Shown piece by piece: positions 575 through 56,857 of a DNA stretch of 56,857 nucleotides. The stretch spans positions 1 to 56,857 of the forward strand of contig JAHJSU010000333.1 of the NCBI GenBank assembly GCA_018829985.1. Direction: 5' to 3'. The stretch comes from Elusimicrobiota bacterium (lineage in GTDB: Bacteria; Elusimicrobiota; Elusimicrobia; Elusimicrobiales; UBA9959). The notes beneath the pieces were generated by a model. That model was not told the origin of the DNA. It made no database searches and saw nothing but the letters and a program-made list of their open reading frames with translations. The position numbers and the translations under genes are program-made. Within the stretch, counting starts at the first letter, position 1; each line of letters opens with the position of its first letter.

Positions 575-1237
575 ATGATGAAGGATAACAAGGAAATCAG
601 GAAGGGCAAAGAGCCGAGAGACCACAAGGAAGCCAAAGAGGCCAAGGAAACGGTAAAATACGGCAACGTGATGCCCAAGGACTACACGCCGAGGCTTAAG
701 ACGGCGTATCTCCAGAAAATAGTCCCCGCCATTATGAAGGACCTGTCCCTCGGGTCTCCGATGGCCGTGCCCAGGATGACGAAGATAGTCATCAATATCG
801 GAGTAGGCGAGGCCAAGGAGAACATCCAGGCGCTGGACCTTGCCAAGGAAGACCTGACCCAGATAGCCGGCCAGGCGCCGCAGATCAGAAGGGCCAAGAA
901 GTCCATTTCCAATTTCAAATTGAGGCAGGGCATGCCGATAGCCGTAAGGGTCACCCTGCGCGGGGCCATGATGTACGAGTTCTTCGACAGGTTCGTGTCC
1001 CTGTCAGTGCCCAGGATACGCGATTTCCAGGGATTGGACCCGAAGTTATTCGACGGCCGCGGCAATCTGAACATAGGCCTGAAGGAACATCACATTTTCC
1101 CGGAAATTAACGTTGAAAAATCGCCCAAGGCCCGCGGCATGAACATCACCTTTGTCACCACGGCCGGCAGCGACGATAAAGCCAAGGCGCTGCTGGAGTA
1201 CCTGGGCATGCCTTTTAAAAAGGCGGCGAATAAATAG
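575..1237 (+). CDS. rplE: 50S ribosomal protein L5 with a Lys/Glu-rich N-terminal extension
   Basis: Conserved L5 core (RLKTAYLQKIVP...MAVPRMTKIVINIGVGEA...HIFPEI). ATG 575 follows AGAGG at 561-565. ATG 671 would give the canonical length but has no RBS. Confidence 0.9.
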   Translation: MMKDNKEIRKGKEPRDHKEAKEAKETVKYGNVMPKDYTPRLKTAYLQKIVPAIMKDLSLGSPMAVPRMTKIVINIGVGEAKENIQALDLAKEDLTQIAGQAPQIRRAKKSISNFKLRQGMPIAVRVTLRGAMMYEFFDRFVSLSVPRIRDFQGLDPKLFDGRGNLNIGLKEHHIFPEINVEKSPKARGMNITFVTTAGSDDKAKALLEYLGMPFKKAANK

Positions 1238-1456
1238 TCGATAGTGGAGAGTAAATAGAACGGAAGTCTAAAGTAATAACGCAAGTCGAGAGTGGAGAGT
1301 CTAGAGTAACTAGAACATAAGTCTAAAGTCGAGAGTAAGTAAAACAGAAGTCTAAAGTAATAAAATAATGTTTCCGCACTTTAGACTCTAGACTTTCGAC
1401 TTTAGACTATCGACCCTAGACTCTACACTTTAGACTCTAGACTTTAGACTTTACAC
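1238..1456. repeat. Word-hairpin (AGTCTAA/AGTGGAG words), rplE-rpsZ spacer
   Basis: Purine-rich left arm vs ACTTTAGACT-type right arm. Shares a 26-mer AACGCAAGTCGAGAGTGGAGAGTCTA with 22706-22985. Confidence 0.8.
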
Positions 1457-1476
1457 TGGTTTTTTAGGAGAAAAGA

Positions 1477-5985: not shown

Positions 5986-6174
5986 TCCGAAAATTGCGGT
6001 TGAAATCGGTTCCCCCAAGCCTGGGGGTAATATCCAAGGCAATTTTCGGAAGGCTAAAGGATAAAGGCTTAAGGATGAAGGCAAGACACGGCGAATACAA
6101 GGGCTTTTTTTCGCCCTTTAGCCTTTATCCCTCATCCTTTATCCTTCCCGAAAAATTCAACTGAATTTTCCGGG
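5986..6174. repeat. Composite three-hairpin element (CCGAAAATTGC / AGGnTnA heptamers / CCCGAAAAATT), copy 1
   Basis: Hairpin 1 is CCGAAAATTGC..GCAATTTTCGG. Hairpin 2 is AGGCTAA-AGGATAA-AGGCTTA-AGGATGA.. vs CCTTTAGCCTTTATCCCTCATCCTTTATCCTT. Hairpin 3 is CCCGAAAAATTCAACTGAATTTTCCGGG. Confidence 0.85.
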
Positions 6175-6192
6175 TTAACGGAGGTGATGGGC

Positions 6193-6840: not shown

Positions 6841-7029
6841 ATGGGTAACGGCTCACCACAGAGGCACGGAGAGCACGGAGTTTTCTCCGCCGAAGGCGGA
6901 CCCCCGCCAATACAACTCGGCGGGCGCAGCGCCGGGCTGTTTGGCGGGCACGGAGTTTTTTCCTCGGTGTTTCTCTGTGTTCTCCGTGTCTCCGTGGTTT
7001 TGTACTATCTCTTTTATTGCTGAGTAGTT
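6841..7029. repeat. Diverged MITE-B-like hairpin with nested REP units (adk-map spacer)
   Basis: Left end GGTAACGGCTCACCACAGAGGCACGGAGAGCACGGAG. Right end CTCCGTGTCTCCGTGG...GCTGAGTAGTTA abuts the map ATG. REP units CCGCCGAAGGCGGA etc. sit in the loop. Confidence 0.55.
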
Positions 7030-7791
7030 ATGAACATGGTGGAAATTAAAACCGCCGCCGAGCTTGACAAAATAAGGCAGGCGTCAAAGATAGTGGCCCG
7101 GACGCTGGCGCTTTTAAAGAACAATATCCGGTCCGGCGTTTCCACCGCCTATTTGAACGCTCTGGCGGAGAGCGAGATCAGAAAAAATAACGCAGTCCCG
7201 GCCTTTCTCGGTTACCGTGGTTATCCCGCAACGCTTTGCGTGTCCATAAACGAGGAAGTGGTTCACGGCATGCCAAACGCCCGGCGGTTTTTGAAAAACG
7301 GGGATGTGGTAAGCCTGGACCTCGGAGTTGTTTACGCGGATTTTTACGGCGACGCGGCCGTGACGGTGGCGGTCGGCGAAGTGAAGCCCGAGTGTTCCAG
7401 GCTGATTTCGGTCACGGAACAGTCCCTTGCCAGGGCTGTTTCAACCGTTAAAAACGGCGCGTGCCTGGGGGATGTGTGTTACGCGGTGGAAAGTTTTGTG
7501 GTTCAAAAAGGGATGTCCGTGGTCAGGGAATTCACCGGGCACGGCATAGGACGCCGCCTCCATGAGGAGCCGTCCATCCCTAATTACGGCAAACCCGGCT
7601 CGGGCGTAATGCTTAAAGTCGGGATGACGCTTGCCATCGAGCCGATGGTGTGCCTGGGCCGGCCGGAAGTGAGTATAAAAAACGACGGCTGGACGGCCGT
7701 TTCCGTGGACGGCAGCTGCGCGGCGCATTTCGAGCATACGGTGGCCGTGACGGAAAACGGATGCGAAATACTTACTCTGATTCAAGATTGA
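7030..7791 (+). CDS. map: Methionine aminopeptidase, type I
   Basis: FTGHGIGRRLHEEP and AHFEHTV metal-ligand motifs. Synteny. Confidence 0.93.
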   Translation: MNMVEIKTAAELDKIRQASKIVARTLALLKNNIRSGVSTAYLNALAESEIRKNNAVPAFLGYRGYPATLCVSINEEVVHGMPNARRFLKNGDVVSLDLGVVYADFYGDAAVTVAVGEVKPECSRLISVTEQSLARAVSTVKNGACLGDVCYAVESFVVQKGMSVVREFTGHGIGRRLHEEPSIPNYGKPGSGVMLKVGMTLAIEPMVCLGRPEVSIKNDGWTAVSVDGSCAAHFEHTVAVTENGCEILTLIQD

Positions 7792-8396: not shown

Positions 8397-8485
8397 CAGT
8401 AACCAGTAATCGGTAACCAGTAAAAAGCGGGCAGCAGACAGATTTTGCGGATTTACCGGTAACCGGTTACTGATTACCGATTACT
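8397..8485. repeat. Word-hairpin (CAGTAAC words), rpmJ-rpsM spacer
   Basis: Phased heptamers CAGTAAC-CAGTAAT-CGGTAAC-CAGTAAA vs TTACCGGTAACCGGTTACTGATTACCGATTACTG. The same family occurs at 9372-9451, 25183-25250 and 26134-26161. Confidence 0.8.
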
Positions 8486-8506
8486 GCAGTATTTTAAGGA
8501 GAAAGT

Positions 8507-8905
8507 ATGGCAAGAATAGCGGGTGTGGATTTACCGAGAGAGAAAAGAATAGACGTTGCGCTTGCGTATGTCTACGGCATAGGCCGGCCCCTGGCCGGTA
8601 AGATACTGGAAAGCCTGAAAAGCCAGGTGGATCCTTCCACCAGGGTCAAAAACCTTACCGAAGACCAGGTCGGCATGCTGAACACGCTGATCTCCAAAGA
8701 ATACAAGGTGGAAGGCGAACTCAGGAGAGAGGAGACCGCCCATATCAAAAGGCACGTCGAAACAGTCAGTTACCGCGGCTACCGCCACAGAAGAGCCCTC
8801 CCGGCCAGGGGCCAGCGCACCAGAACCAACGCCCGGACAAGGCGCGGCAGGAGAAAGACCGTCGGCTCGACGGCAAAAGCTCCGGCCAGACCGGCGGTTA
8901 AATAA
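8507..8905 (+). CDS. rpsM: 30S ribosomal protein S13
   Basis: [14 protein letters not shown] start; [24 protein letters not shown]. Confidence 0.95.
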
Positions 8906-11115: not shown

Positions 11116-11301
11116 CCCGAAAATTGCGAAGCAATTTTCGGAAGGCTAAAGGATAAAGGCTGAAGGATGAAGGAAAAGATACAGCAGATACGCCCGCTAT
11201 TTCAGCGGGCGCTCGCCGAACTGGCGAGCGATTTTTTCCGCCCCTTAGCCTTTATCCCTAATCCTTTATCCTTCCCGAAAAATTTAACTAAATTTTTCGG
11301 G
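11116..11301. repeat. Composite three-hairpin element, copy 2 (rpoA-rplQ spacer)
   Basis: Same architecture and near-identical arms as 5986-6174. The loop carries a terminator-like stem. Confidence 0.85.
11209..11238 (+). terminator. Intrinsic-terminator-like stem-loop plus T-run inside composite element copy 2
   Basis: GCTCGCC-GAACT-GGCGAGC followed by ATTTTTT. Confidence 0.45.
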
Positions 11302-11316
11302 ATTTAGGATCCATTT

Positions 11317-12842: not shown

Positions 12843-13023
12843 CCCGAAAATTGCAGTTGAAGTCGTCCGCTGAAGGCGGATATCCATTGCAATTTTCGAA
12901 GGATAAAGGATGAAGGCTAAAGGATGAGGGTAAAAACACTGGAAAACAAAAAGATTTTTCCGTCCCTTAGCCTTTATCCTTTAGCCTTAAGCCTTCCCGA
13001 AAAATTCATCTGAATTTTTCGGG
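12843..13023. repeat. Composite three-hairpin element, copy 3 (mreB-mreC spacer)
   Basis: Same architecture. Partial copies lie at 24245-24345 and 36699-36779. Confidence 0.85.
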
Positions 13024-13040
13024 TTATATAAGGAAAGACT

Positions 13041-22705: not shown

Positions 22706-22985
22706 CAGAGAGTAAGTGGAACGGAAGTCTAAAGTGGAGAGTAAATAAAACAGAAGTCTAAAGTAAAAACGCAAGTCGAGAGTGGAGAGTCTAAAGTCTA
22801 AAGTAAACAACTTAATATTTCTACGTACTTTAGACTCTACACTTTAGACTCTAGACTTTCGACTTTACTACTCAGCCACAAAGTCACAAAGACACGAAGG
22901 AAATCAGACAACAAACCGTTTGATCCATAAACTTTCTTTGTGCCTTGGTGTCTTAGTGGCTGAGTAGTTACCTTTAGACTTAGAT
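22706..22985. repeat. Second copy of the AGTCTAA-word hairpin (murI downstream), with MITE-B nested in its right arm
   Basis: Same words and the shared 26-mer with 1238-1456. Confidence 0.8.
22865..22971. mobile_element. MITE-B copy (~107 bp), nested in a word-hairpin downstream of murI
   Basis: Termini ..ACTACTCAGCCAC / GTGGCTGAGTAGTTAC. Internal 8-mer-word hairpin CCACAAAG-TCACAAAG-ACACGAAG vs CTTTCTTTGTG-CCTTGGTG-TCTTAGTGG. One mismatch to the copy at 56719-56826. Confidence 0.75.
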
Positions 22986-23860: not shown

Positions 23861-24240
23861 TCTTGTTTTTGGGAGTTCTTTCGCTCTCCGCCGCCTGTTC
23901 CGCTTCCAGGCCGGACATTATCCAGGTAGGCCCGTGGTTCGCGCCCAAATCGCCGGATGAAGTCGCGCTTTTCTCTTCCAGGGGTGAGACCGCAAAACCC
24001 TGGGGCGCCATAGCGATAATACACAGTTCCAAATTCCCGCCGAACGATAAAAGCGCCATAGCGAACAGCAGGAAGCAGGCCAGGATCATGGCCGCCGAGA
24101 TCGGCGCGGACGGCCTTATTTTGATGGAGGAGACCGTTAAGGGCGAAACTCAATTGGGAGTTTACCAGGAACCGGAAGTGTATATAAGCGCTTTGGCTTT
24201 CAAATATGCCGCCGACATCTCCACCGCCCCACAAAAATAA
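23827..24240 (+). CDS. Putative lipoprotein (unknown function)
   Basis: Basic n-region, then lipobox LSLSAAC-S. Overlaps the hicA 3' end by 34 nt. It is not HicB-like. Confidence 0.55.
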   Translation: MQRAGLRASKIILFLGVLSLSAACSASRPDIIQVGPWFAPKSPDEVALFSSRGETAKPWGAIAIIHSSKFPPNDKSAIANSRKQARIMAAEIGADGLILMEETVKGETQLGVYQEPEVYISALAFKYAADISTAPQK

Positions 24241-24383
24241 CGTCAAGGCTAAAGGACAAAGGATAAAGGCTAAGGGACAGAAAAATCTTTTTGTATCTGC
24301 TGTGTTTTTTCCTTCAGTCTTCATCCCTCATCCTTCGTCCTTCCGAAAATTGCCATGGATATTTTTGTCCGTATGTTTTTGCT

Positions 24384-30356: not shown

Positions 30357-30395
30357 ATCCGGAGGAAGGGGTATAGGGGAAATCAAATATCAAAG

Positions 30396-30508
30396 GTAAC
30401 TACTCAGGTCTGTCGTCGTAGTGGCAGAGTTTACTCTGCCCAAAAAGGCAAAGCAAGCTTTGCCACTACAAAAAATACGTGAAAAATACGGAGAACCTGA
30501 GTAGTTAC
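30396..30508. mobile_element. MITE-A copy (113 bp) in the ftsH-cdaA spacer
   Basis: Same TIRs. 8-bp TSD TATCAAAG at 30388-30395 and 30509-30516. Internal sub-hairpins GGCAGAG..CTCTGCC and GGCAAAGC..GCTTTGCC. Confidence 0.9.
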
Positions 30509-30662
30509 TATCAAAGATTAAAAATCAAAAAGACAGTTTAAGAAGAGGAAAAAGCAAATGTCAAAGATTAAAAATCAATATGAATGACGCGGAAATTTAT
30601 GGTTTTTGGGTTTTTAGCGGGTATTTTTAAGATTTGATATTTAATTTTTTGATTTAACCAGT

Positions 30663-31475
30663 ATGTATCTCACTTATTTAAAGAACATTTTCGACATATT
30701 CGTCGTTTACTACATCATCTACCGGCTTATCCTGCTGATACAGGGCACCCGGGCGATGCATGTGGTCTGGGGCGTTTTTGTTTTAGCCATTATAACGGCG
30801 CTGGCGAAATTTTTAAGCCTGGGCGCCACGGCGTGGCTGTTGCAGCAGTTCTGGCTTGCCGGTATTTTCCTGCTGATCGTGGTTTTTCAGCCGGAGATCA
30901 GGGTGGCACTGGCGAACATCGGCTCAAACCCGCTTGGCAGGATCCTGATGCCGCAGGAATATAAATTCATAGCCGAGCTCATGGAGGCCGTGAAATTCGC
31001 TACGGAGAAGAAGACAGGTATGCTGATCGTGCTTGAACAGGACATGGGGCTGAGGGATATAGTGGAAACGGGCGTGCGGATCAACGGCGAAGTTTCCAAG
31101 GAACTCCTGCTTACCATATTCCAGCCCCATACGCAGCTGCACGACGGCGCCGTGGTCATCGCCAACAACAGGGTGGTGTCCGCCGGCTGCATCCTGCCGC
31201 TTACCGAGCAGCAGGAGCTCTCGAAAATATTGGGCATGCGCCACCGCGCCGCCCTTGGTTTAAGCGAGATAGCCGACGCCATTATAATCACCGTCTCGGA
31301 AGAGACGGGGCTTATCTCCATAGCCAGAAACGGCAAACTCCAGCAGGCCGTCGACCCGCTCGACCTTGAGACCATGCTTTACCAGCTTTACCGTTCAAGG
31401 ACCGAAAAAACGCTTTTAAGGAAAGGCGTAAGGCCGCAGCGGCAGCCCCCGCAGCAGCCGCCCCCGCAGCCTTGA
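30663..31475 (+). CDS. cdaA: Diadenylate cyclase CdaA
   Basis: Three N-terminal TM helices plus a DAC domain (LHDGAVVI...GMRHRAALGLSE...VSEETGLISIA). Confidence 0.9.
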   Translation: MYLTYLKNIFDIFVVYYIIYRLILLIQGTRAMHVVWGVFVLAIITALAKFLSLGATAWLLQQFWLAGIFLLIVVFQPEIRVALANIGSNPLGRILMPQEYKFIAELMEAVKFATEKKTGMLIVLEQDMGLRDIVETGVRINGEVSKELLLTIFQPHTQLHDGAVVIANNRVVSAGCILPLTEQQELSKILGMRHRAALGLSEIADAIIITVSEETGLISIARNGKLQQAVDPLDLETMLYQLYRSRTEKTLLRKGVRPQRQPPQQPPPQP

Positions 31476-33303: not shown

Positions 33304-33453
33304 CCCGTCCGCCTTAGGCGGACGGGAGTTATGAGTTTTTCCGCCCCCGCCAAACAACCGGCGGGTCCGCCGAAGCTGTGTGGCGGAAAACGGCCGGCGG
33401 GCAAGCGGGTCCCCGCCAATACTACCCGGCGGGCGCAGCGCCTCTGGCGGAAA
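33304..33453. repeat. REP-like GC-rich unit cluster
   Basis: TCCGCCTTAGGCGGA, CCGCCAAACAACCGGCGGGTCCGCC and GTGGCGGAAAACGGCCGGCGGGCAAGCGGGTCC units. Single units also lie at 4575-4600, 12724-12765, 24408-24452 and 54075-54092. Confidence 0.85.
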
Positions 33454-39430: not shown

Positions 39431-39525
39431 AGTAGGTAGTAGGTAGAATGTAGTAGGTAGGAAGGGAAAGAGCACAGATTCTTTTTTAATGAAACCCTGT
39501 CTGCTGCCTACTATCTACTGTCTAC
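39431..39525. repeat. Word-hairpin (GTAGGTA words)
   Basis: Phased GTAGGTA-GTAGGTA-GAATGTA-GTAGGTA vs CTGCCTACTATCTACTGTCTAC. The right arm reaches the stop codon of the response-regulator gene. Confidence 0.8.
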
Positions 39526-39887
39526 TTCGCCTTTAAAATCTTTTCCACCATCTCCCTGACCTCGTTTATCCCGAAGGGCTTTATAAGAAAGCCATCCACG
39601 GAGAGCATCGGAAGAATGGGGTTTGAAATATCGGATACGGAGCCGGTTATCACTATGACGCTGGTCAGAGGCCGGCGGACCTTGAGTCGCCTTATTACTT
39701 CTTCGCCCCGCAGGTCCGGCATTTTCAGGTCGCAGATCGCCAGGTCAAAATCTTCTTTCTCGATGATCGCCACGGCGGAAGCGCCGTCCACGGCCGTTAT
39801 AACGTCGTAGCCGCGGCTGAGCAGCGCCCGCGTGACGTAATTTCTGACAAGTTCTTCGTCGTCCACCACAAGTATTCTTTTGGACAT
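39522..39887 (-). CDS. Single-domain (CheY-like) response regulator
   Basis: 121 aa; ILVVDDE...DLAICDLKMPD...ITG...KPF. Confidence 0.88.
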   Translation of the reverse strand: MSKRILVVDDEELVRNYVTRALLSRGYDVITAVDGASAVAIIEKEDFDLAICDLKMPDLRGEEVIRRLKVRRPLTSVIVITGSVSDISNPILPMLSVDGFLIKPFGINEVREMVEKILKAK

Positions 39888-39902
39888 AAGGGCTAACCCG
39901 AA

Positions 39903-39993
39903 AGTAGGTAGTAGATGGTAGGTAGTAGGTAGGAAAAGCGTATTTCGTAAAAACCCTATCTACCACCTACTACATACTACCTACTACCCTACC
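39903..39993. repeat. Word-hairpin (GTAGGTA words), between the RR and HK genes
   Basis: AGTAGGTAGTAGATGGTAGGTAGTAGGTAGG vs CCCTATCTACCACCTACTACATACTACCTACTACCCTACC. The right arm overlaps the last codons of the kinase gene. A half copy lies at 23583-23640. Confidence 0.8.
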
Positions 39994-41597: not shown

Positions 41598-41686
41598 CGG
41601 AAGGGGTGGGATTCGAACCCACGGTACGGCGATAACCGTACACCGGTTTTCAAGACCGGCGCCTTAAACCACTCGGCCACCCTTCC
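41598..41686 (-). tRNA. tRNA-Ser (anticodon UGA), CCA not encoded
   Basis: The reverse complement folds as a cloverleaf: acceptor GGAAGGG/CCCTTCC, anticodon loop CT-TGA-AA, long variable arm GTACGG..CCGTAC, and T-arm GTGGG-TTCGAAT-CCCAC. Confidence 0.93.
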
Positions 41687-41960: not shown

Positions 41961-42204
41961 CGGTTTTTCCGCCTAAGGCGGACCCGCTTGCCCGCCGGCC
42001 GTTTTCCGCCACACAGCTTCGGCGGACCCGCCGGTTGTTTTCCGCCACACTACTCGGCGGACCCGCCGGACTGTTTGGCGGGGGCGGGGGAGGGCCGGGC
42101 TGTTTGGCGGGCAAGACCGGCGCCTTTCCGCCGGAGGCGGATCCGCCATGTTGTTTTCCGCCACACTGCTCGGCGGACCCGCCGGACTGTTTGGCGGGGG
42201 CGGA
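41961..42204. repeat. Cluster of GC-rich REP-like palindromic units
   Basis: Iterated units of the form GTGGCGGAAAAC..CCGGCGGGTCCGCC and TCCGCC-TAA-GGCGGA. Its reverse complement is near-identical to 53371-53490 and to part of 33345-33450. Confidence 0.85.
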
Positions 42205-42225
42205 AAACCACTCGGCCACCCTTCC
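42205..42225. repeat. 21-bp exact duplicate of the tRNA-Ser 5' end
   Basis: AAACCACTCGGCCACCCTTCC is identical to 41666-41686. Confidence 0.9.
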
Positions 42226-42478: not shown

Positions 42479-42508
42479 ATTATTAGATTTGTCAGGGGAT
42501 TTTCTTAA

Positions 42509-44878
42509 ATGTCAAACGAAGCCGATACTTGCCGCAAATTTGTCCTTCCCAAGCTATACGCCGCCGGCTGGACCGACGACCACATAAGCGAGCAGAAATA
42601 TTTCACGGACGGCAGGGTTATAACCGTCGGCAACGCCTGTGTGACCAAAAAACAGAAACGCGCGGACTATCTTTTGCGCTATCGCCGCGACTTTCCCGTT
42701 GCCATTGTCGAAGCCAAGGCCGGCTATAAAACCGCCGGCGACGGGATGCAGCAGGCCAGGGAATACGCTGAAATTCTCGGGCTGATGTTTGCCTACGCCA
42801 CCAACGGCGCTGAAATACTGGAACACGACTACACTACCGGCGCAGAAACCCGGCTTGAGACCTTTCCGGCTCCGGAAGAACTCTGGCAAAGGTACAGAAA
42901 GGCCAAAGGCCTGTCCGCTGACAGTATGGCGGAAAAAGTCCTTGCGCCTTATTATTTCAATCCGGACAAGGAGCCGCGTTATTACCAGCGTATTGCCATA
43001 AACTCCGTTGTTCAGGCGATACTCAAAGGCCGGAGGCGCGTGCTTATTACCCTTGCCACCGGCACCGGCAAAACAGAAGTGGCTTTCCAGATCGCCTGGA
43101 AGCTTTGGACCTCCAAGTGGAATAAATCGGGGGAGGCGCGCAAACCCCGGATACTTTTCCTCTCTGACCGTAGCATATTGGTGGACGACCCCAAAGACAA
43201 GACATTCGCGCCTTTCGGCGAGGCCCGGCATAAAATTGACGGCGAGGCTGTTAAAAGCCGGGAAATGTACTTCGCCCTCTATCAATCACTGGCGCAGGAT
43301 GAACGCCGCCCCGGCCTTTACAAAGAATATGCCAAGGATTTTTTCGACCTCATAATTGTAGACGAATGTCACCGCGGCAGCGCCTCGGACGAGAGCAACT
43401 GGCGCGAAATCCTTGAATACTTTGAGCCCGCCTATCAATTGGGCATGACGGCCACCCCGCTGCGCGAGGACAACAAAGATACTTATAAGTATTTCGGCAA
43501 TCCCCTTTATACCTACAGTTTAAAGCAGGGTATAGAAGACGGCTTTCTTGCCCCGTATAAAGTTCACCGCATTGTGCCCGAGGTTGATGCCTCCGGCTGG
43601 CGGCCCGCCGTGGGCCAGGTTGACCGTTATAAACGCGAAATCCCGGATGGGGAATACGGTACCCCGGATTTCGGCAGGCTTCTGGCCTTGCGCCCCCGCA
43701 CTGAGGCCGTGGCCCGGCATCTTACGGATTTTCTAAAGCGCACAGACCGCTTCGGCAAAACCATAGTCTTTTGTGAAGACCAGGAAGAAGCCGAAGAAAT
43801 GCGCCTCCTCCTCAACAACCTGAATGCCGACCTTGTAAAGCAATATCCTGATTATGTTTGCCGCATTGTCTCGGATGAGGGAGCTTTGGGGCGCGGGCAC
43901 CTTGGCCGCTTTCAGGAGCTGGAAACCACCACCCCCGTTATTGTCACCACCAGCAAGCTGTTGACCACCGGCGTGGACGTGCAGATGTGCCGCAACATCG
44001 TCATATATAAAGTGGTTAATTCTATGACGGAATTTAAGCAGATAATAGGGCGCGGCACCCGCATTAAAAGGGATTATAAAAAGTTTTTCTTTAATATCCT
44101 GGATTATACCGGCAGCGCCGCCCGGCGTTTCGCCGACCCGGATTTTGACGGAGAGCCCGCCTTGCTTACGCTGGAGGAGATTGACGCAGCGGGGAAAGCA
44201 AAACCCGGCGCCGAAAAAATCTTAACTCCGGAACAAGAGGCCGACTATACTCAAACCCGCAATGAGTTTGAGCCTCCTGTTGAAGATTTGGGGCATGACG
44301 GCGCCCCCAGGAAGTATTATGTGGATGACGGCGACAAAATCCGCATAGTGGCGGATTATGAGCAAAGCCTGGATGAGTCCGGCAATAAGCTTAAGACCGT
44401 GCGTTATACGGATTACACCTCTGAAAAAGTCCGCTCCATGTTTACCTCTTCAGCCGAGCTCCTGTCAAAGTGGAAAGTTCCGGAGGAAAGGGAGGCCATA
44501 ATAACCGCCCTTGCCGAACGGGGAATAACTTTTGAGGATTTGGTTAAAGCCACCGGCCAGGATGACGCGGACCATTTTGATCTCTTGTGCCATGTGGCCT
44601 ACAACGCCCCTTTGCGCTCACGGCGCGAGCGGGCTGAGCGGGTAAGACTTGGTAAAAGCGACTTTTTTGAAAATTTTTCTCCGGATGCCAGGCAGATACT
44701 AAATGAAATTTTAGAGAAGTATGTTGAGTACGGTACCGAGCAGTTTAAAGTGCCGGATATCCTCAAGGTTGATCCTATTTCAAAACACGGCAATACCCTT
44801 GAAATTGCCGCCGTCTTTAATGGTCCGGAGAACCTCAAAGACGCATTAACCAAGCTGCAAACCTTCCTATATCCCTAA
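42509..44878 (+). CDS. hsdR: Type I restriction enzyme R subunit (short, COG4096-like form)
   Basis: N-terminal nuclease-like region (EADTCRKFVLPKL...VAIVEAK). SF2 motifs LATGTGKT, IVDECHRG and MTATP. Confidence 0.88.
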   Translation: MSNEADTCRKFVLPKLYAAGWTDDHISEQKYFTDGRVITVGNACVTKKQKRADYLLRYRRDFPVAIVEAKAGYKTAGDGMQQAREYAEILGLMFAYATNGAEILEHDYTTGAETRLETFPAPEELWQRYRKAKGLSADSMAEKVLAPYYFNPDKEPRYYQRIAINSVVQAILKGRRRVLITLATGTGKTEVAFQIAWKLWTSKWNKSGEARKPRILFLSDRSILVDDPKDKTFAPFGEARHKIDGEAVKSREMYFALYQSLAQDERRPGLYKEYAKDFFDLIIVDECHRGSASDESNWREILEYFEPAYQLGMTATPLREDNKDTYKYFGNPLYTYSLKQGIEDGFLAPYKVHRIVPEVDASGWRPAVGQVDRYKREIPDGEYGTPDFGRLLALRPRTEAVARHLTDFLKRTDRFGKTIVFCEDQEEAEEMRLLLNNLNADLVKQYPDYVCRIVSDEGALGRGHLGRFQELETTTPVIVTTSKLLTTGVDVQMCRNIVIYKVVNSMTEFKQIIGRGTRIKRDYKKFFFNILDYTGSAARRFADPDFDGEPALLTLEEIDAAGKAKPGAEKILTPEQEADYTQTRNEFEPPVEDLGHDGAPRKYYVDDGDKIRIVADYEQSLDESGNKLKTVRYTDYTSEKVRSMFTSSAELLSKWKVPEEREAIITALAERGITFEDLVKATGQDDADHFDLLCHVAYNAPLRSRRERAERVRLGKSDFFENFSPDARQILNEILEKYVEYGTEQFKVPDILKVDPISKHGNTLEIAAVFNGPENLKDALTKLQTFLYP

Positions 44879-44879
44879 A

Positions 44880-44904
44880 CAGCACAATTATTACAATTGT
44901 GCTG
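44880..44904. other. Perfect 10-bp stem hairpin between hsdR and the abiE promoter (terminator or operator)
   Basis: CAGCACAATT-ATTAC-AATTGTGCTG. No T-run follows it. It abuts the -35 box. Confidence 0.5.
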
Positions 44905-44909
44905 TGGGC

Positions 44910-44938
44910 TTGACAAATAGGCCGCCACAGCGTATAAT
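44910..44938 (+). promoter_or_regulatory. Consensus sigma-70 promoter for abiEi/abiEii
   Basis: TTGACA-N17-TATAAT, an exact consensus. It is followed by the inverted repeat TTACAtggagTGTAA (44941-44955) and ATG 44961. Confidence 0.65.
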
Positions 44939-44960
44939 AGTTACATGGAGTGTAACTATT

Positions 44961-45617
44961 ATGCGGGCAAACCCGGCTGAAAACGAACAAAAACTGTTCC
45001 TGATAGCCGATGGCCAGGGCGGCTATTTTACCGCTAAACAGGCCCGTTCGGCCGGCTACTACAACAGACTTCGGTATTATCATGCTGAAAAAGGCCATTG
45101 GCTTGCCGTAGACCGCGGGGTTTACCGGCTTAGAAACTACCCGGCCTCAGAAAGGGAAGACCTGATCCGCTGGTCGCTTTGGAGCTGCGACCGGAAAGGA
45201 AATCCCCAGGCTGTATTCTCTCATCATACCGCCCTTGCTTTTCATCAGCTTGGCGATATTATGCCCGCTAAAATTCATTTTACCGTCCCGCCTAAGTTCC
45301 GGAAAAAAATTTCAGGCGGCTGCGTTGTGCACCGCGCAGCCCTGCCGCCGGAAGATATTGAACGGCACGAAGGTTTTTTTGTGACAACCCCTTTCCGCAC
45401 GCTGTTTGACGCCCATATACACGGGTTTGAACCGGACCAGCTGCAAAAAGCCGTTGTTGACGCTTATAAAAAAGGGTTTATCCCGGATTTTAAGATAAAC
45501 AATCCAAAGACAGCCGAAGACCCGGGGGGTGTTGCCGGCGGCATGGGCGATTTTATGGCTTATGTTGCACAAATTATTTCCGGTTACAGGAACAGTCTTG
45601 CGCATGGAAGACCATAA
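44961..45617 (+). CDS. abiEi: AbiEi-family type IV TA antitoxin / transcriptional regulator
   Basis: N-terminal wHTH-like LIADGQGGYFTAKQARSAGY...LAVDRGVYRL. 14-nt overlap with the abiEii start. The start was chosen downstream of the consensus promoter. Confidence 0.7.
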   Translation: MRANPAENEQKLFLIADGQGGYFTAKQARSAGYYNRLRYYHAEKGHWLAVDRGVYRLRNYPASEREDLIRWSLWSCDRKGNPQAVFSHHTALAFHQLGDIMPAKIHFTVPPKFRKKISGGCVVHRAALPPEDIERHEGFFVTTPFRTLFDAHIHGFEPDQLQKAVVDAYKKGFIPDFKINNPKTAEDPGGVAGGMGDFMAYVAQIISGYRNSLAHGRP

Positions 45618-46600
45618 ACTTTATAAATCAGCTACGGCTTTCAGGAGAGCGCTTGAGGATCGTCTTAAAGCCATTGCCGGCGGCAGCATGGACCTGCCCC
45701 GGCTTAGAAAATCCGTGGCTTTTGAAAGACTGCTGGCCCGGTTTTTTGCCGATACCGGCTCAGCCTGGCTGCTGAAAGGCGGTTATGCCCTGGAAATCCG
45801 TTACAGGGGAAGCTCGCGTTCCACAAAAGATATGGATTTCACGCTGCCGAGCGCTTTAATGCTCCCCGGAACCAATAACGCGGACCCCGCCGCTATACAT
45901 GTTGTTATTGGGCGTATTGCGGCCAGGGAGCTTAATGACTGGTTTGAATTCCGCGTAGGCCCTGAAGCGCAGGAAATTGACGGCGCGCCATACGGCGGGT
46001 ACAGGTTCCCCATGGAAGCGGTTGTGGACAAGCGGCAGTTCTCAACTTTTCATTTTGATGTGGCCGTGGGCGACGCTGTAATGGGTGAGCCCGAGTGGCT
46101 TTTGGGCCACGATATGCTGTCCTTTGCCGGAATCCCGCCGGCAAAGATAGCCCTGCTTCCAAAAGAGCGGCATTTTGCGGAAAAAATTCATGCTTACACT
46201 TTCCCGCGCGGTAATGTCCCCAATTCAAGAACAAGGGACCTGGTGGACATGGTGATTCTAATACAAAAAGGGCTGTCAAAACAAAAAACATCGGAAGCAA
46301 TTAAGGCCACGTTTAGTAACTACTCAGGTTCTCCGTATTTTTCACGTATTTTTTGTAGTGGCAAAGCTTGCTTTGCCTTTTTGGGCAGAGTAAACTCTGC
46401 CACTACGACGACAGACCTGAGTAGTTACCACGTTTAACAGAAGGGGGACTCACGCTGTTCCTAAGGCGCTGGAGTATCCGCCGGATAACTGGAAACTGCC
46501 GTTTAAGAATCTTGCCGAAGAAATAGGGCTTGAGCCCAAAGCAATGGACGCTGCTTTTGCCGTTGTGACGGATTTCTGGAACGAACTTTTTAAGGAGTAA
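45604..46600 (+). pseudogene. abiEii: AbiEii-family nucleotidyltransferase toxin gene, interrupted by a MITE
   Basis: KGGYALEIRY...RSTKDMDF NTase motif. The ORF now ends at 46437 in MITE-derived sequence. Removing 121 bp restores a 291-aa ORF ending at 46600. Confidence 0.8.
46316..46428. mobile_element. MITE-A copy (113 bp) inserted in abiEii
   Basis: 13-bp TIRs GTAACTACTCAGG/CCTGAGTAGTTAC. 8-bp TSD CACGTTTA at 46308-46315 and 46429-46436. 113/113 identical (reverse orientation) to 30396-30508. Confidence 0.9.
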
Positions 46601-46602
46601 CT

Positions 46603-48171
46603 ATGGCACGCTCAAAAACACCCGCTCAGCCGCAGACCACCGCCGGGCAGCTCAGTTCTATTATAAAATCCTGCCGCGACATAATGCGCAAGGACAAAGG
46701 CCTTAACGGCGACTCCGACCGCCTGCCCATGCTCACCTGGATAATGTTCCTTAAATTCCTGGACGATATGGAAAAAATGCGCGAGAACGAAAGCAAAATG
46801 GACGGCAAAAGATATGCCTCTGCCATACAGCCGCCCTACAGATGGCGCGACTGGGCCGCAAAAGAGGAAGGTGTTACCGGCGAGGATTTGATTTCTTTCA
46901 TCAATAACGACGAATGCGTAAGGCCGGACGGCAGCCGGGGCGCCGGGCTTTTCGCCTATCTTAAAAGGCTTGAGGGCTCCAGGAAAGGCGACAGGCGCAC
47001 GGTTATTTCCACCGTGTTCCACGGCGCCATAAACCGCATGCAGAGCGGCTACCTTCTGCGGGATGTTATAAACAAAATAAACGGCATACATTTCACCTCC
47101 ACCGAGGAGATTTACACCCTTTCCCATCTTTACGAAAGCCTGCTTAAGGAAATGCGGGATTCCGCCGGCGACGCCGGGGAATTTTACACGCCGCGCGCCG
47201 TGGTAAAGTTTATGGTTACCGCCATAAATCCCAGACTGGGGGAGACAGTGCTGGACCCTTCCTGCGGCACCGGCGGTTTTCTGGTTGCGGTCTTTGAGCA
47301 TATCAGGAACCAGTGCAAAAACGTAGAAGATAATAAAATTCTCCAAAACGACACTCTTTACGGCGGCGAGGCGAAATCCCTGCCGTACCTGCTTTGCCAG
47401 ATGAATTTGCTCCTTCACGGTCTGGATTCGCCGTCAATTGACTCCGGCAATTCCCTGCGCTTTCCGCTTAACGAGATAGGCGACAAGGACCGCGTGGATG
47501 TTATAGTCACAAACCCGCCCTTCGGCGGCGAGGAGGAAAAAGGCATACAGGGCAATTTCCCGCAGGACAAGCAGACCGCTGAAACCGCGCTGTTGTTTTT
47601 GCAGCTTATTATGCGAAAACTCAGGCGCAAAGGCCCGGAGTCAAAGAAAGGCGGCCGCGCGGCGGTAATCGTGCCCAACGGCACGCTTTTCGGCGACGGC
47701 GTTTCGGCAAGAATAAAGGAAGAGCTGCTTAAAGAATTCAACCTGCACACAATTGTGCGCCTGCCCAACGGCGTGTTCGCGCCTTACGCCGGTATTCCCA
47801 CCAACATACTTTTCTTTGACCGCGGCGGCCCCACCAAAGAAATCTGGTACTATGAGCAGCCGCTCCCCGAAGGCCGCAAGAATTACACAAAAACCCAGCC
47901 CATCCAGTTTGACGAGTTTAAGCCCTGTCTTAACTGGTGGAAAAAGCGCGAGGAAAACGACCAGGCCTGGAGGGTAAAGGCTGAAGATATCCTGAAATAT
48001 GACGAGAACAAAGTCCTCGTTTCCGCCAACCTGGACATAAAAAATCCCAAGTCCCTGGAAGAGTTTGAACACCTAGCGCCGGAACAGCTTGTAGAGGATA
48101 TCCTGCAGAAAGAACATAAAGTAATAGAAATAATGGCCGAGCTAAAAGAGCTTTTAAAGAAGGTCATGTAA
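46603..48171 (+). CDS. hsdM: Type I R-M system DNA methyltransferase subunit M (N6-adenine)
   Basis: Motif I DPSCGTGGFL, motif IV NPPFGG, and an HsdM N-terminal domain. Confidence 0.92.
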   Translation: MARSKTPAQPQTTAGQLSSIIKSCRDIMRKDKGLNGDSDRLPMLTWIMFLKFLDDMEKMRENESKMDGKRYASAIQPPYRWRDWAAKEEGVTGEDLISFINNDECVRPDGSRGAGLFAYLKRLEGSRKGDRRTVISTVFHGAINRMQSGYLLRDVINKINGIHFTSTEEIYTLSHLYESLLKEMRDSAGDAGEFYTPRAVVKFMVTAINPRLGETVLDPSCGTGGFLVAVFEHIRNQCKNVEDNKILQNDTLYGGEAKSLPYLLCQMNLLLHGLDSPSIDSGNSLRFPLNEIGDKDRVDVIVTNPPFGGEEEKGIQGNFPQDKQTAETALLFLQLIMRKLRRKGPESKKGGRAAVIVPNGTLFGDGVSARIKEELLKEFNLHTIVRLPNGVFAPYAGIPTNILFFDRGGPTKEIWYYEQPLPEGRKNYTKTQPIQFDEFKPCLNWWKKREENDQAWRVKAEDILKYDENKVLVSANLDIKNPKSLEEFEHLAPEQLVEDILQKEHKVIEIMAELKELLKKVM

Positions 48172-49355
48172 TGAAAAAAAACTGGGCCTCAGCCCCCTTG
48201 GGGGAAATATTGATTGAGCGCCGGGAAGTCCCTGATGCCGAAGCTCTTGTTTCAGGAGAAATCCCTATTATCTCAAAAATTTCTTTTAAAGACGGAGAAA
48301 TAGTGCTACGTTCGGGTGGGGAAACAAGAACCGGGATGATTCTTGCGCGCAATGGCGACTTGCTTGTGTCGGGTATAAACGCAGCTAAAGGCGCAATTGC
48401 GATTTATGAAGGAGAAAAGCCAATAGCCGCAACCATCCATTATGGCGCGTATATCCCCAACGAAGGCAGGATAGATGTTAACTATCTCTGGTGGCTATTG
48501 CGTAGTCAGGCTTTTAAAGATTTGCTGGAAAAATATGTGCCTGGCGGAATTAAAACAGAACTTAAATCCAAACGTTTTCTCCCTATACCAGTTCCGCTTC
48601 CGCCCTTGCCTGAACAGCGAAAAATTGTTGCACGGATTGAGGATGTTAATGATAAAAATCAACGCATAAAAATGCTTAATACAGAGATTAAGAAGGAAAC
48701 CGAGTTAATTCTTTCTACTGTCCTGTCGGATATTTTTAGCAAGGCAGTAAAAAAGGGTTGGCAACAAGGTCGTTTGGGTAATTATGTTGTTAAAGACTGC
48801 TATGGGACATCAGAAAAGACTACCGATGATATTTCTGGTACACCAATTTTAAGAATGGGGAATATTCAAAAAGGAAAAATCCTTCTAAACGGATTAAAAT
48901 ATTTGTCCTTAACAGATAAAGAGAAAAATAAACTGTTGCTGCAAAAAGGAGATATATTGGTTAATCGAACAAATAGCGCTGAGCTTGTCGGAAAGTGTGC
49001 TGTTTTTGACTATGATGGTGATTTCGGATTTGCCTCTTACTTGATTATGCTTCGGGTAAATAAGGAGACTGCTGACCCATATTTGGTTTCCTATTATGTA
49101 AATTCATCTCTTGGCAGAAAATACATGCTTTCAGAAAAAAAACAAATGACTGGGCAAGCCAATGTCAACGCCACTAAACTAAAAGCTTTACCAATAGCAT
49201 TGCCGACACTAAAAGAACAGAAAAAGATTGCCGGCTTTTTAAAAAAGATTGACGGGATGGTTATGGACACCGAAAAACTGATTCATCGATCAGAGACTAA
49301 AATAGACGGCTTATTATCTTCGGTTTTAAATAAGGCGTTTAAGGGTGATTCGTAA
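48171..49355 (+). CDS. hsdS: Type I R-M system specificity subunit S
   Basis: Two TRDs separated by conserved helices (LPPLPEQRKIVARIE / LPTLKEQKKIAGFLKKID). AT-richer than its neighbours. Start overlaps the hsdM stop. Confidence 0.9.
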   Translation: MKKNWASAPLGEILIERREVPDAEALVSGEIPIISKISFKDGEIVLRSGGETRTGMILARNGDLLVSGINAAKGAIAIYEGEKPIAATIHYGAYIPNEGRIDVNYLWWLLRSQAFKDLLEKYVPGGIKTELKSKRFLPIPVPLPPLPEQRKIVARIEDVNDKNQRIKMLNTEIKKETELILSTVLSDIFSKAVKKGWQQGRLGNYVVKDCYGTSEKTTDDISGTPILRMGNIQKGKILLNGLKYLSLTDKEKNKLLLQKGDILVNRTNSAELVGKCAVFDYDGDFGFASYLIMLRVNKETADPYLVSYYVNSSLGRKYMLSEKKQMTGQANVNATKLKALPIALPTLKEQKKIAGFLKKIDGMVMDTEKLIHRSETKIDGLLSSVLNKAFKGDS

Positions 49356-52909: not shown

Positions 52910-53859
52910 AAATACTTTTTGTCACCGACCTGCACGGAAACGAGGCCAAATTCCGCCGTGGTTTTGATATTGCCAGGGAGACCGGCGCAAAAGCCGTTAT
53001 AAACGGCGGCGATATGCTCTGCCACGGGGCGGACATTCACAAAGAGCAGCGGGAGTTTATAGAAGGCTTTCTTGACGGGCACTTCGCCGAATATGAACAA
53101 AGCGGCATTTACCATCTTGGCTATCTCGGAAACGACGATTTGCGGATATATGACCCGCTGTTTGATTCGGTTTGCTCGAAATACAAATACGCAGTGAATC
53201 TGGCGCAGTCCCGGTTCGAGCTCTATGGTTTTGAATTTATAGGCATGAACTGGGTTACGGATTACCCGTTCAGGCTGAAGGACAGGTGCCGCCGCGACGG
53301 CCCCGGCTATGTTTTCCAGGAACAGTTCGGCTCCGGGCTGCTGTCCACTCCCGAAGGCTTCAAAGAGCTGCCCGCCCCCGCCAAACAACCGGCGGGTCCG
53401 CCGAGTAGTGTGGCGGAAAACAACCGGCGGGTCCGCCGAAGCTGTGTGGCGGAAAACGGCCGGCGGGCAAGCGGGTCCGCCTCTGGCGGAGAGGACTGGC
53501 CGGCTTATGCCGCCACGCTGCCTACCATTGAGAATGAACTTGCCGCCCTTCCCAAGCCGAAGACAGTCGCTAAAACGGTTTATGTAATCCACATGCCGCC
53601 TTCCGGGCTTGGCCTGGATGTAACCGACTCCGGGGAGGAGGTAGGCTCAAAAGCCGTCAGCCGGTTCATCAAGAAAACAGGCCCGCTATTGACCTTGCAC
53701 GGCCACATCCACGAATCGCCGTCAATGAGCGGCGTATGGAAAGCCAAAATCGGGAAAACGGTGTGTATTCAGCCCGGCCAGATGAAAGGAAAAGCCTTAA
53801 GTTATGTTCTGATAAACCTGAAAAGCATGGAACTGGAAAGATTTGAAGAGCCGCTGTAG
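52906..53859 (+). CDS. Calcineurin-like metallophosphoesterase carrying an in-frame REP-array insertion
   Basis: ILFVTDLHGN, GGDM, GNDD, HMPP and LHGHIHES motifs. 4-nt overlap with the helicase gene. Confidence 0.8.
   Translation: MKILFVTDLHGNEAKFRRGFDIARETGAKAVINGGDMLCHGADIHKEQREFIEGFLDGHFAEYEQSGIYHLGYLGNDDLRIYDPLFDSVCSKYKYAVNLAQSRFELYGFEFIGMNWVTDYPFRLKDRCRRDGPGYVFQEQFGSGLLSTPEGFKELPAPAKQPAGPPSSVAENNRRVRRSCVAENGRRASGSASGGEDWPAYAATLPTIENELAALPKPKTVAKTVYVIHMPPSGLGLDVTDSGEEVGSKAVSRFIKKTGPLLTLHGHIHESPSMSGVWKAKIGKTVCIQPGQMKGKALSYVLINLKSMELERFEEPL
53371..53490. repeat. REP-like unit array (~120 bp) inside the metallophosphoesterase CDS
   Basis: Near-identical to the reverse complement of ~41965-42090 and to 33345-33420. 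Translated in-frame as PAPAKQPAGPPSSVAENNRRVRRSCVAENGRRASGSASGG. Confidence 0.85.
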
Positions 53860-56718: not shown

Positions 56719-56826
56719 GTTACTACTCAGCCACAAAGTCACAAAGACACGAAAGAAATCAGACAACAAACCGTTTGATCCATAAACTTTCTTTGTGCCT
56801 TGGTGTCTTAGTGGCTGAGTAATTAC
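56719..56826. mobile_element. MITE-B copy (~108 bp) just after the AEP-helicase stop
   Basis: ~99% identical to 22865-22971 over ~98 bp. Confidence 0.75.
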
Positions 56827-56857
56827 TAAAAATCAGCGTTATCAGCGTTCTATATTC

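What the first reader, a model, noticed from the sequence alone, without database searches (positions are those of the whole stretch)
46308..46436. A 113-bp MITE with 8-bp target duplication has split the AbiEii toxin gene
**Two identical copies.** 46316-46428 is 113/113 identical, in inverted orientation, to 30396-30508.

**Transposition hallmarks.** Both copies end in perfect 13-bp terminal inverted repeats (GTAACTACTCAGG / CCTGAGTAGTTAC). Each is flanked by its own perfect 8-bp direct repeat:
- CACGTTTA at 46308-46315 and 46429-46436
- TATCAAAG at 30388-30395 and 30509-30516

The element has no ORF and has internal sub-hairpins. Perfect identity implies recent activity, and therefore an autonomous partner transposase somewhere outside this window.

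**Restoring the gene.** Deleting the element plus one TSD (121 bp) joins codon ...ATF (46309-46314) in-frame to NRRGTHAVPKALEYPPDNWKLPFKNLAEEIGLEPKAMDAAFAVVTDFWNELFKE. The stop is at 46598-46600, 2 nt before the hsdM ATG. This gives a 291-aa protein of typical AbiEii length.

**Current state.** The toxin ORF now ends in a 39-aa MITE-encoded tail.
Basis: seen in the sequence. Interest (0 to 1): 0.8.

Follow-up and report, generated by a model that had tools for sequence, protein, structure and literature searches.

The report
IS66-type MITE splits AbiEii toxin gene
A 113-bp non-coding mobile element (a MITE using IS66-family transposon ends) has jumped into and truncated an AbiEii toxin gene inside a restriction-modification locus of an uncultured Elusimicrobia bacterium: a clean, well-supported but ordinary kind of event.

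Summary
Window 46316-46428 is the exact reverse complement of 30396-30508. Each copy is flanked by its own perfect 8-bp duplication, and the perfect TIR is 14 bp. Two uninterrupted orthologous loci (87-89% identical, exactly 291 aa, one with the same hsdR-abiEi-abiEii-hsdM order) carry one CAC(G/A)TTTA where the window has 121 extra bases. An independently assembled contig, 99.7% identical, has the same insertion, so this is not an assembly chimera. One JGI metagenome holds at least 55 insertion sites of this MITE. Of the 56 copies, 40 are identical and 47 have perfect, all-different, AT-rich 8-bp duplications. The termini (GTAACTACTCAGGT) match complete 1.5-2.4 kb elements that encode IS66-family DDE transposases. 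They also match the published, experimentally active ISDge4 (ISBst12 group, 8-bp repeats). No partner transposase was found in this organism, and no full-length element shares more than 14-20 terminal bases with the MITE. The insertion removes the conserved C-terminal 54 residues of AbiEii and uncouples it from hsdM. This is a new MITE family of a known kind, of modest interest.

The parts
46316..46428 (+). 113-bp MITE, copy A, inserted in abiEii. The '+' orientation is the one in which the terminator-like hairpin reads left to right.
   Evidence: Exact reverse complement of 30396-30508. Absent from orthologous loci L001 and L002. Same insertion in independent contig L115.
46308..46315 (.). 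Left copy of the 8-bp target-site duplication CACGTTTA
   Evidence: Present once in empty sites: L002 CACGTTTA, L001 CACATTTA.
46429..46436 (.). Right copy of the 8-bp target-site duplication CACGTTTA
46316..46329 (+). Left terminal inverted repeat GTAACTACTCAGGT (14 bp perfect)
   Evidence: Same 14-15 nt at both ends of full-length IS66-family elements.
46415..46428 (-). Right terminal inverted repeat (ACCTGAGTAGTTAC on the + strand)
46360..46382 (+). Terminator-like hairpin GGCAAAGCTTGCTTTGCC followed by TTTTT, inside the MITE and co-directional with abiEii and hsdM
   Evidence: Consensus scan. There is no orientation bias across copies, so function is unproven.
45604..46437 (+). Truncated abiEii ORF (277 aa): 237 native residues plus a 40-residue non-native tail ending at a TAA formed across the right duplication
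   Evidence: Pfam PF08843, 92 bits. Equals database protein P0003.
46437..46600 (+). Orphaned 3' part of abiEii (last 54 codons and stop 46598-46600), now untranslated
   Evidence: Reconstruction. Alignment to full-length homologs and to MenT3.
44961..45617 (+). abiEi-like antitoxin gene (218 aa from ATG 44961), overlapping the abiEii start by 14 nt
   Evidence: ORF list. Pfam AbiEi_4 at 23.8 bits, just below the 25-bit cutoff. A 218-aa ORF occupies the same position in L001.
42509..44878 (+). hsdR (789 aa), type I restriction subunit upstream of the abiE pair
   Evidence: A 789-aa ortholog with HSDR_N/ResIII/EcoEI_R_C domains is in L001.
46603..49355 (+). hsdM (46603-48171) and hsdS (48171-49355). 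The original abiEii stop lies 2 nt before the hsdM ATG.
Evidence: They were not tested against a family library here.
30396..30508 (-). 113-bp MITE, copy B, intergenic between an FtsH-like ORF (ends 30356) and the next ORF (starts 30663). Its duplications TATCAAAG lie at 30388-30395 and 30509-30516.
22864..22971 (+). 108-bp MITE of a second family with related termini (GTTACTACTCAGCC / GTAACTACTCAGCC). Flanks CTTTCGAC and CTTTAGAC match 7 of 8.
56719..56826 (+). Second copy of the 108-bp MITE, 31 bp from the contig end, with no duplication
   Evidence: Its right flank is identical to that of copies in L050 and L074.

Best explanation
A 113-bp non-autonomous transposable element (MITE) inserted by transposase-mediated cut/copy-and-paste into an AT-rich 8-mer (CACGTTTA) at codon 238 of a 291-codon abiEii toxin gene, duplicating the 8-mer.

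Its 14-bp termini (GTAACTACTCAGGT) are those of a sub-lineage of the IS66 family (ISBst12-like ends). An IS66-type DDE transposase supplied in trans from elsewhere in the genome or community is therefore the inferred mobilising enzyme.

Shown:
- the insertion itself
- the duplication
- the empty-site alleles
- at least 55 insertion sites in the source community, mostly of identical sequence
- the same termini on transposase-encoding elements

Inferred:
- The truncated AbiEii is non-functional. It keeps the nucleotidyltransferase core but has lost the conserved C-terminal 54 residues and gained 40 unrelated ones.
- Early translation stop 165 nt upstream of hsdM, plus a terminator-like hairpin in the element, may lower hsdM/hsdS expression.
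For: Sequence facts:
- Exact inverted identity, 14-bp TIR and two different perfect 8-bp duplications.

Filled versus empty site:
- Window 42502-46315 matches L001 997-4823, and window 46428-47203 matches L001 4815-5590. The overlap is the single-copy target.
- The alignment shows exactly +121 bp.
- L115 is an independent contig with the same insertion.

Population:
- 56 copies at 55 sites. Identity to the window copy is 113/113 in 40, 112/113 in 12, 111/113 in 3 and 110/113 in 1.
- 47 have perfect duplications and 8 have one mismatch.
- Duplication GC is 27% against 55% for the contigs.

Related elements:
- A second, 108-bp family in the window also has 8-bp duplications elsewhere.
- A 187-193-bp family in a Nitrospiria MAG and others share the terminus. 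15 of 24 have perfect 8-bp duplications.

Autonomous elements with the same termini:
- They encode DDE_Tnp_IS66 (E = 2.7e-49 and 5.8e-42), zf-IS66 and DUF6444.

Literature:
- ISDge4 (IS66 family, ISBst12 group) has TIRs GTGACTACTCAGCA / GTAACTGCTCAGCA and an 8-bp repeat, and transposes experimentally (PMC12898284).
- IS66 repeats are 8 bp and its ends start GTAA (PMC11946415).

Gene restoration.
Against: - No transposase gene lies in the window or in any fetched contig of the same metagenome.
- No full-length element shares more than 14-20 terminal nucleotides with the MITE. The direct parent and the actual mobilising enzyme in this host are unidentified.
- None of the full-length elements recovered shows an 8-bp duplication in its assembled context. 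L072 shows only 6 bp.
- Loss of toxin function and polarity on hsdM are untested.
- Copies show no orientation bias relative to upstream genes (11 vs 14, p = 0.69).
Confidence: 0.92

Rival explanations
1. The interruption is an assembly artefact: a repeat-induced chimeric join in a metagenome-assembled contig, with no real insertion in abiEii.
For: The window is a MAG contig. Repeats of this kind do disturb the assembly elsewhere. The 108-bp element 31 bp from the contig end lacks a duplication and shares its right flank with other contigs. Many contigs in another MAG break inside an IS.
Against: - Sequence on both sides of the element is collinear with one orthologous locus.
- The 8-bp target is precisely duplicated.
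- A separately assembled contig with 8 mismatches carries the identical junctions.
Confidence: 0.01
2. The element is a MITE mobilised by a transposase of another family that also makes 8-bp duplications (for example IS1595, ISL3, IS256 or ISAs1). The resemblance to IS66-type ends is coincidental.
For: Only 14-20 terminal nucleotides are shared with IS66-family elements. No such transposase was found in the host. The full-length elements recovered lack 8-bp duplications.
Against: - Six different full-length elements with a perfect 12-15-nt match to the MITE terminus all encode DDE_Tnp_IS66.
- No other transposase type was found inside such termini.
- Published ISDge4 links nearly the same terminus to an 8-bp repeat.
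- The typical termini of the other families differ, from my own knowledge of ISfinder descriptions.
Confidence: 0.05
3. The element is a domesticated regulatory module (mobile terminator or small RNA), kept in abiEii because it tunes hsdMS or silences the toxin, rather than a neutral or deleterious insertion.
For: - A stable hairpin.
- A terminator-like stem plus T-run co-directional with abiEii and hsdM.
- The insertion is shared by two strain-level variants.
- MITE-borne terminators are discussed in the literature (PMC10969869).
Against: - No orientation bias at 25 tandem-gene sites.
- AT-rich target choice and near-identical copies look like a recent, unselected burst.
- No Rfam family matches.
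- Relatives keep the gene intact.
Confidence: 0.07

Closest known systems
ISDge4 of Deinococcus geothermalis (IS66 family, ISBst12 group)
   Same: Nearly the same terminal sequence (GTGACTACTCAGCA / GTAACTGCTCAGCA against GTAACTACTCAGGT here and GTAACTACTCAGCC in the 108-bp family). It makes an 8-bp direct repeat on insertion and has been shown to transpose into a gene (PMC12898284).
   Different: ISDge4 is autonomous, with a 449-aa transposase. The window element is 113 bp with no ORF and lives in a different phylum.
Prokaryotic MITEs in general (for example Correia/NEMIS, RUP, ERIC, Nezha, and MITEs that inactivate the mcy microcystin genes)
   Same: Small, non-coding, with TIRs and a target duplication. 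High copy number, hairpin-forming, mostly intergenic with occasional gene disruption (review PMC10969869).
   Different: The parent family here is IS66. That review never mentions IS66, and no IS66-derived MITE turned up in my literature searches. The host phylum, Elusimicrobia, has no described MITEs in the library searched.
AbiE (AbiEi/AbiEii) type IV toxin-antitoxin/abortive infection systems and MenT3 (Rv1045, PDB 6Y5U/7C48)
   Same: The disrupted gene matches Pfam AbiEii (98 bits when restored). It follows an AbiEi-like gene with a 14-nt overlap. It is collinear with MenT3 over residues 6-279.
   Different: The window allele lacks the last 54 residues. It sits between hsdR and hsdM of a type I restriction-modification locus.
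Canonical three-ORF IS66 elements (tnpA-tnpB-tnpC)
   Same: The DDE_Tnp_IS66 catalytic domain, zf-IS66, GTAA-initiated ends and 8-bp repeats.
   Different: The full-length relatives found here have either one ORF (L072) or a DruA/DUF4338-domain ORF1 in place of tnpA/tnpB.

Membership tests
MITE (miniature inverted-repeat transposable element) | Small size and no coding capacity | tested here: met
   113 bp. No ORF can be contained.
MITE (miniature inverted-repeat transposable element) | Terminal inverted repeats | tested here: met
   14-bp perfect TIR GTAACTACTCAGGT.
MITE (miniature inverted-repeat transposable element) | Target-site duplication of fixed length, differing in sequence between copies | tested here: met
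   8 bp. 47 of 56 copies are perfect and 8 have one mismatch. 46 distinct sequences.
MITE (miniature inverted-repeat transposable element) | Multiple dispersed copies | tested here: met
   2 copies in the window.
MITE (miniature inverted-repeat transposable element) | Empty-site alleles showing precise insertion | tested here: met
   L001 and L002 carry the single target with no element. The difference is exactly 121 bp.
MITE (miniature inverted-repeat transposable element) | Termini shared with an autonomous, transposase-encoding element | tested here: met
   The same 14-15 nt ends bound 1519-2391-bp elements.
MITE (miniature inverted-repeat transposable element) | Mobilisation in trans by that transposase | not testable with these tools
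   Needs a transposition assay.
IS66 family (ISBst12-like ends) as parent | Ends beginning GTAA | tested here: met
   GTAACTACTCAGGT. The family description is in PMC11946415.
IS66 family (ISBst12-like ends) as parent | 8-bp direct repeats on insertion | tested here: met
   Met for the MITE copies. Not seen for the full-length elements recovered. Reported for ISDge4 and Frankia IS66.
IS66 family (ISBst12-like ends) as parent | Autonomous elements with these ends encode a DDE_Tnp_IS66 transposase | tested here: met
   PF03050 E = 2.7e-49 and 5.8e-42, plus zf-IS66 and DUF6444. Precomputed Pfam hits for P0121 and P0129 agree.
IS66 family (ISBst12-like ends) as parent | A parent element sharing subterminal sequence beyond the TIR, in the same genome | tested here: not met
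   Only 14-20 nt are shared with any full-length element. No transposase is in the window or the fetched contigs of Ga0180009.
AbiEii / DUF1814 nucleotidyltransferase toxin | Match to PF08843 above the curated cutoff | tested here: met
   98.2 bits restored and 92 bits truncated, against a cutoff of 22.5.
AbiEii / DUF1814 nucleotidyltransferase toxin | Full-length collinearity with characterised members | tested here: met
   Restored protein residues 6-279 align to MenT3 3-277 of 292. The truncated allele stops at residue 237.
AbiEii / DUF1814 nucleotidyltransferase toxin | Upstream AbiEi antitoxin gene | tested here: inconclusive
   AbiEi_4 scores 23.8 bits against a cutoff of 25. Position, overlap and synteny with L001 fit.
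AbiEii / DUF1814 nucleotidyltransferase toxin | Toxicity and neutralisation by AbiEi | not testable with these tools
   Needs expression experiments.
REP/BIME elements mobilised by RAYT (considered and rejected) | Short (about 20-40 bp) palindromes without TIR or target duplication | tested here: not met
   The element is 113 bp with TIRs and 8-bp duplications.

The most novel reading that the evidence does not exclude
The GTAACTACTCAGGTC-ended elements may be an undescribed sub-lineage of the IS66 family. In it, the usual TnpA/TnpB accessory genes are replaced by an HTH plus DruA/DUF4338 (GNAT-like) protein. The short, highly conserved ends of this lineage have independently spawned several unrelated MITE families across phyla: 113 bp and 108 bp in Elusimicrobia, about 189 bp in Nitrospirota, 162 bp in Cloacimonadota. 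The abiEii insertion would then be one visible product of an ongoing burst that erodes defence loci in groundwater bacteria.
Probability: 0.4. Interest if true: 0.5.

Novelty: new member of a known kind. Interest (0 to 1): 0.33.

Why it matters
- It is a textbook-quality natural example of a MITE inactivating a defence or toxin gene. It comes with filled and empty alleles and a large set of near-identical copies, in a phylum (Elusimicrobia) with almost no mobile-element biology.
- It ties a MITE family to IS66/ISBst12-type ends, a parentage absent from a recent review of prokaryotic MITEs.
- For annotation, it explains a 'short' AbiEii call and shows the locus should be marked as a disrupted gene.
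- These repeats also explain contig breaks and a probably mis-joined contig end in this MAG.
- It does not reveal a new mechanism.

Tried and rejected
1. Rfam scan of the whole window: only a tRNA, nothing at the element.
2. Looking for a transposase just inward of single-end matches in GTDB genomes: none. Many singletons are probably chance, since I estimate about 17 chance hits for the 20-mer in 596 Gb.
3. Looking for the direct parent: the MITE shares only 14-20 nt with any full-length element. L158, from the same metagenome, looks like yet another palindromic small element rather than an IS.
4. tblastn of the IS66 transposase and ORF1 against the window and all fetched Ga0180009 contigs: no hit.
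5. Target duplications of full-length elements: none of 8 bp.
6. Terminator-orientation test: no bias.
7. Sigma-70-like promoter reading out towards hsdM: none. The only match is on the minus strand inside the element.
8. Literature searches for IS66-derived MITEs, Elusimicrobia MITEs and IS66 with DUF4338: nothing specific.
9. Crude stop-free-frame test for genic insertions: it overcalls (12 of 56). Inspection and Pfam leave about 4 convincing cases including this one, for example a CN_hydrolase gene in L108.

Full report
**Observation**

The sequence facts hold.
- Window 46316-46428 is the exact reverse complement of 30396-30508, 113 of 113 bases.
- CACGTTTA flanks the first copy at 46308-46315 and 46429-46436. 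TATCAAAG flanks the second at 30388-30395 and 30509-30516.
- The terminal motif with up to two mismatches occurs 8 times in the window against 0.52 expected. None of 100 shuffles reached 8.
- The element forms a long hairpin: DNA -27.3 kcal/mol with z = -7.0, and RNA z = -10.1. It matches no Rfam family.
- The second copy is intergenic, between an FtsH-like ORF ending at 30356 and an ORF starting at 30663.

**Gene restoration**

Deleting the element plus one 8-mer gives an ORF of 291 codons from ATG 45604 to the stop at 46598-46600, 2 nt before the hsdM ATG at 46603. The present ORF has 277 codons: 237 native plus 40 non-native, not 39.

Pfam AbiEii (PF08843) matches both forms:

| Form | Score | Profile positions matched (of 238) |
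|---|---|---|
| Restored, 291 aa | 98.2 bits | 1-209 |
| Truncated, 277 aa | 92 bits | 1-191 |

The stronger test is homology.
- A search of 5.8 billion proteins found P0001 and P0002. Both are exactly 291 aa, and they are 89% and 87% identical over 100% of the reconstruction.
- The same search returned the window's own truncated product as P0003. It is labelled as from an Elusimicrobia MAG on a 56,857-bp contig, so the window is that whole contig.
- In the alignment, the 54 restored residues line up with all homologs. Invariant or nearly invariant columns include T242, H243, P246, P252, P253, W256, P259 and V281. The MITE-encoded tail of P0003 aligns with nothing.
- The restored protein is also collinear with the solved DUF1814 toxin MenT3/Rv1045, residues 6-279 against 3-277 of 292. 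The alignment runs straight through the junction.

**Empty sites and the assembly question**

L001 encodes P0002 and has the same order: hsdR (789 aa), abiEi (218 aa), abiEii (291 aa), hsdM.
- Window 42502-46315 aligns to L001 997-4823, and window 46428-47203 aligns to L001 4815-5590.
- The 9 bases of L001 used twice contain the single-copy target.
- The three-way alignment shows one CACGTTTA in L002 and one CACATTTA in L001, where the window has 121 extra bases.

L115 is a separately assembled metagenome contig. It is 99.72% identical to window 44893-47778, with 8 mismatches in 2886 bp, and carries the identical insertion. A chimeric join is therefore excluded.

**Population of copies**

A 20-mer covering the terminus and both subterminal variants was scanned against public collections.

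Together with the window there are 56 copies at 55 sites:

| Measure | Result |
|---|---|
| Identical to the window copy (113/113) | 40 copies |
| 112/113 | 12 copies |
| 111/113 | 3 copies |
| 110/113 | 1 copy |
| Perfect 8-bp duplications | 47 copies (46 distinct sequences) |
| Duplications with one mismatch | 8 copies |
| GC of the duplicated 8-mers | 27% |
| GC of the contigs | 55% |

- The central positions of the duplicated 8-mer are almost always A or T.
- Most copies are intergenic. About four, including this one and one in a carbon-nitrogen hydrolase gene (L108), convincingly interrupt genes.
- A decayed copy with duplication AAAAATAA lies in a different Elusimicrobia MAG, L011.

**Which transposon family**

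The same terminus bounds several other small-element families.
- A 108-bp family has two copies in the window (22864-22971 and 56719-56826). Elsewhere it has perfect 8-bp duplications.
- A 187-193-bp family has 20 or more copies in a Nitrospiria MAG.
- Further families of 82, 106, 123, 142 and 162 bp occur in other genomes. Of 24 complete small elements, 15 have perfect 8-bp duplications.

The same terminus also bounds complete elements:
- L157 and L132, 2391 bp
- L173 and L174, 2359 bp
- L168, L169 and L170, 2377 bp
- L072, 1519 bp

All have perfect 12-15-bp GTAACTACTCAGGTC ends. Their large ORF is an IS66-family DDE transposase: PF03050 at E = 2.7e-49 and 5.8e-42, with zf-IS66 and DUF6444.

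Six contigs of Elusimicrobia MAG NC_groundwater_827 break exactly 138 bp inside such an element. This shows a multi-copy IS of this type in the phylum.

The literature agrees.
- ISDge4 (IS66 family, ISBst12 group) has ends GTGACTACTCAGCA / GTAACTGCTCAGCA, makes an 8-bp repeat and transposes experimentally (PMC12898284).
- IS66 ends start GTAA and give 8-bp repeats (PMC11946415).

**Limits**

- The MITE shares only 14-20 terminal bases with every full-length element found.
- No transposase lies in the window or in the fetched contigs of the same metagenome.
- None of the full-length elements shows an 8-bp duplication in its assembled context. L132 and L157 share one flank but not the other, which suggests assembler path-switching or recombination between copies.
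- The family-level assignment is therefore well supported. The actual partner in this host is unknown.

**Consequences for the locus (inferred)**

- The conserved nucleotidyltransferase columns lie before residue 237 (G59, G60, D76, D78, K194, R211, D212, D215). The conserved C-terminal segment is replaced by an unrelated, partly hydrophobic tail. Loss of function is likely but untested.
- Translation now stops 165 nt before hsdM instead of 2 nt.
- The element carries a terminator-like hairpin plus T-run in the same direction, at 46360-46382. Reduced hsdM/hsdS expression is plausible.
- Across 25 tandem-gene sites the element shows no preferred orientation: 11 co-oriented against 14, p = 0.69. 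There is no sign that the hairpin is selected for.

**Comparison and novelty**

This is a standard MITE in every testable respect, and gene disruption by MITEs is well known (PMC10969869).

New points:
- This particular element family.
- Its IS66/ISBst12-type parentage, which that review does not mention.
- The host phylum.

The finding is correct and clean, but of modest interest.

Noticed in passing
window 22864-22971 and 56719-56826; also L130, L145, L050: A second MITE family of 108 bp with related ends (GTTACTACTCAGCC... / GTAACTACTCAGCC...) is 98% identical between the two window copies. Copies elsewhere have perfect 8-bp duplications (CTTAAATT, ATCTCCTT, TAAAAATC). The window copy at 22864 has a 7/8 duplication and a G-to-T change at its first base.
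   Followed up: partly
window 56827-56857: The last 31 bp of the contig follow a 108-bp MITE that has no duplication. They are identical to the right flank of the same element in L050 and L074. The contig end is probably an assembler run-through into another locus.
   Followed up: partly
L157:349-2739, L173:68-2426, L168:2041-4417: Full-length IS66-family elements with these ends carry, in place of tnpA/tnpB, a roughly 295-aa ORF1 with an N-terminal HTH-like region and a Pfam DruA (DUF4338) domain (E about 1e-32). ORF1 overlaps the transposase ORF by 14 nt. DUF4338 is interpreted elsewhere as GNAT-like (PMC10853773). I found no paper linking it to IS66.
   Followed up: partly
window 1219-1463, 6029-6177, 11121-11304, 12879-13038, 22709-22877, 24234-24363, 39431-39989: Many intergenic regions contain arrays of imperfect 7-nt tandem repeats (for example TAGACTC/TAGACTT, AAGGATA/AAGGCTA, GTAGGTA). 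They often form inverted blocks around a short spacer. Their origin and function are unknown.
   Followed up: no
window 33337-33442, 41968-42208, 53371-53490: A GC-rich repeat family of about 60-100 bp (…GTTTTCCGCCACAC…CGGCGGACCCGCCGG…) occurs in both orientations. One cluster lies between a tRNA gene (41598-41686, minus strand) and hsdR.
   Followed up: no
window 42502 / L001:997: Homology between the window and L001 begins only 7 nt before the hsdR start. Upstream sequence is unrelated, so the hsdR-abiE-hsdMS block sits in different contexts in the two organisms, next to a tRNA gene in the window. This is consistent with a mobile defence island.
   Followed up: no
L108 (Ga0180009_10006222) about 8424-8536: Another copy of the 113-bp MITE interrupts a carbon-nitrogen hydrolase gene (Pfam E = 1.6e-61 after excision) about 16 codons into the ORF.
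   Followed up: partly
L004-L047 (Nitrospiria bin Hainich-H41-bin024-1): A 187-193-bp MITE family with the same 20-nt terminus (GTAACTACTCAGGTCTGCCG) has at least 20 copies in one Nitrospiria MAG, nearly all with perfect 8-bp duplications. The same IS ends have therefore spawned unrelated MITEs in a different phylum.
   Followed up: partly
window 7019-7031: A solitary near-match to the right terminus (GCTGAGTAGTTAT) lies immediately before an ATG. There is no mate or element-like sequence nearby. It is probably chance or a relic.
   Followed up: partly
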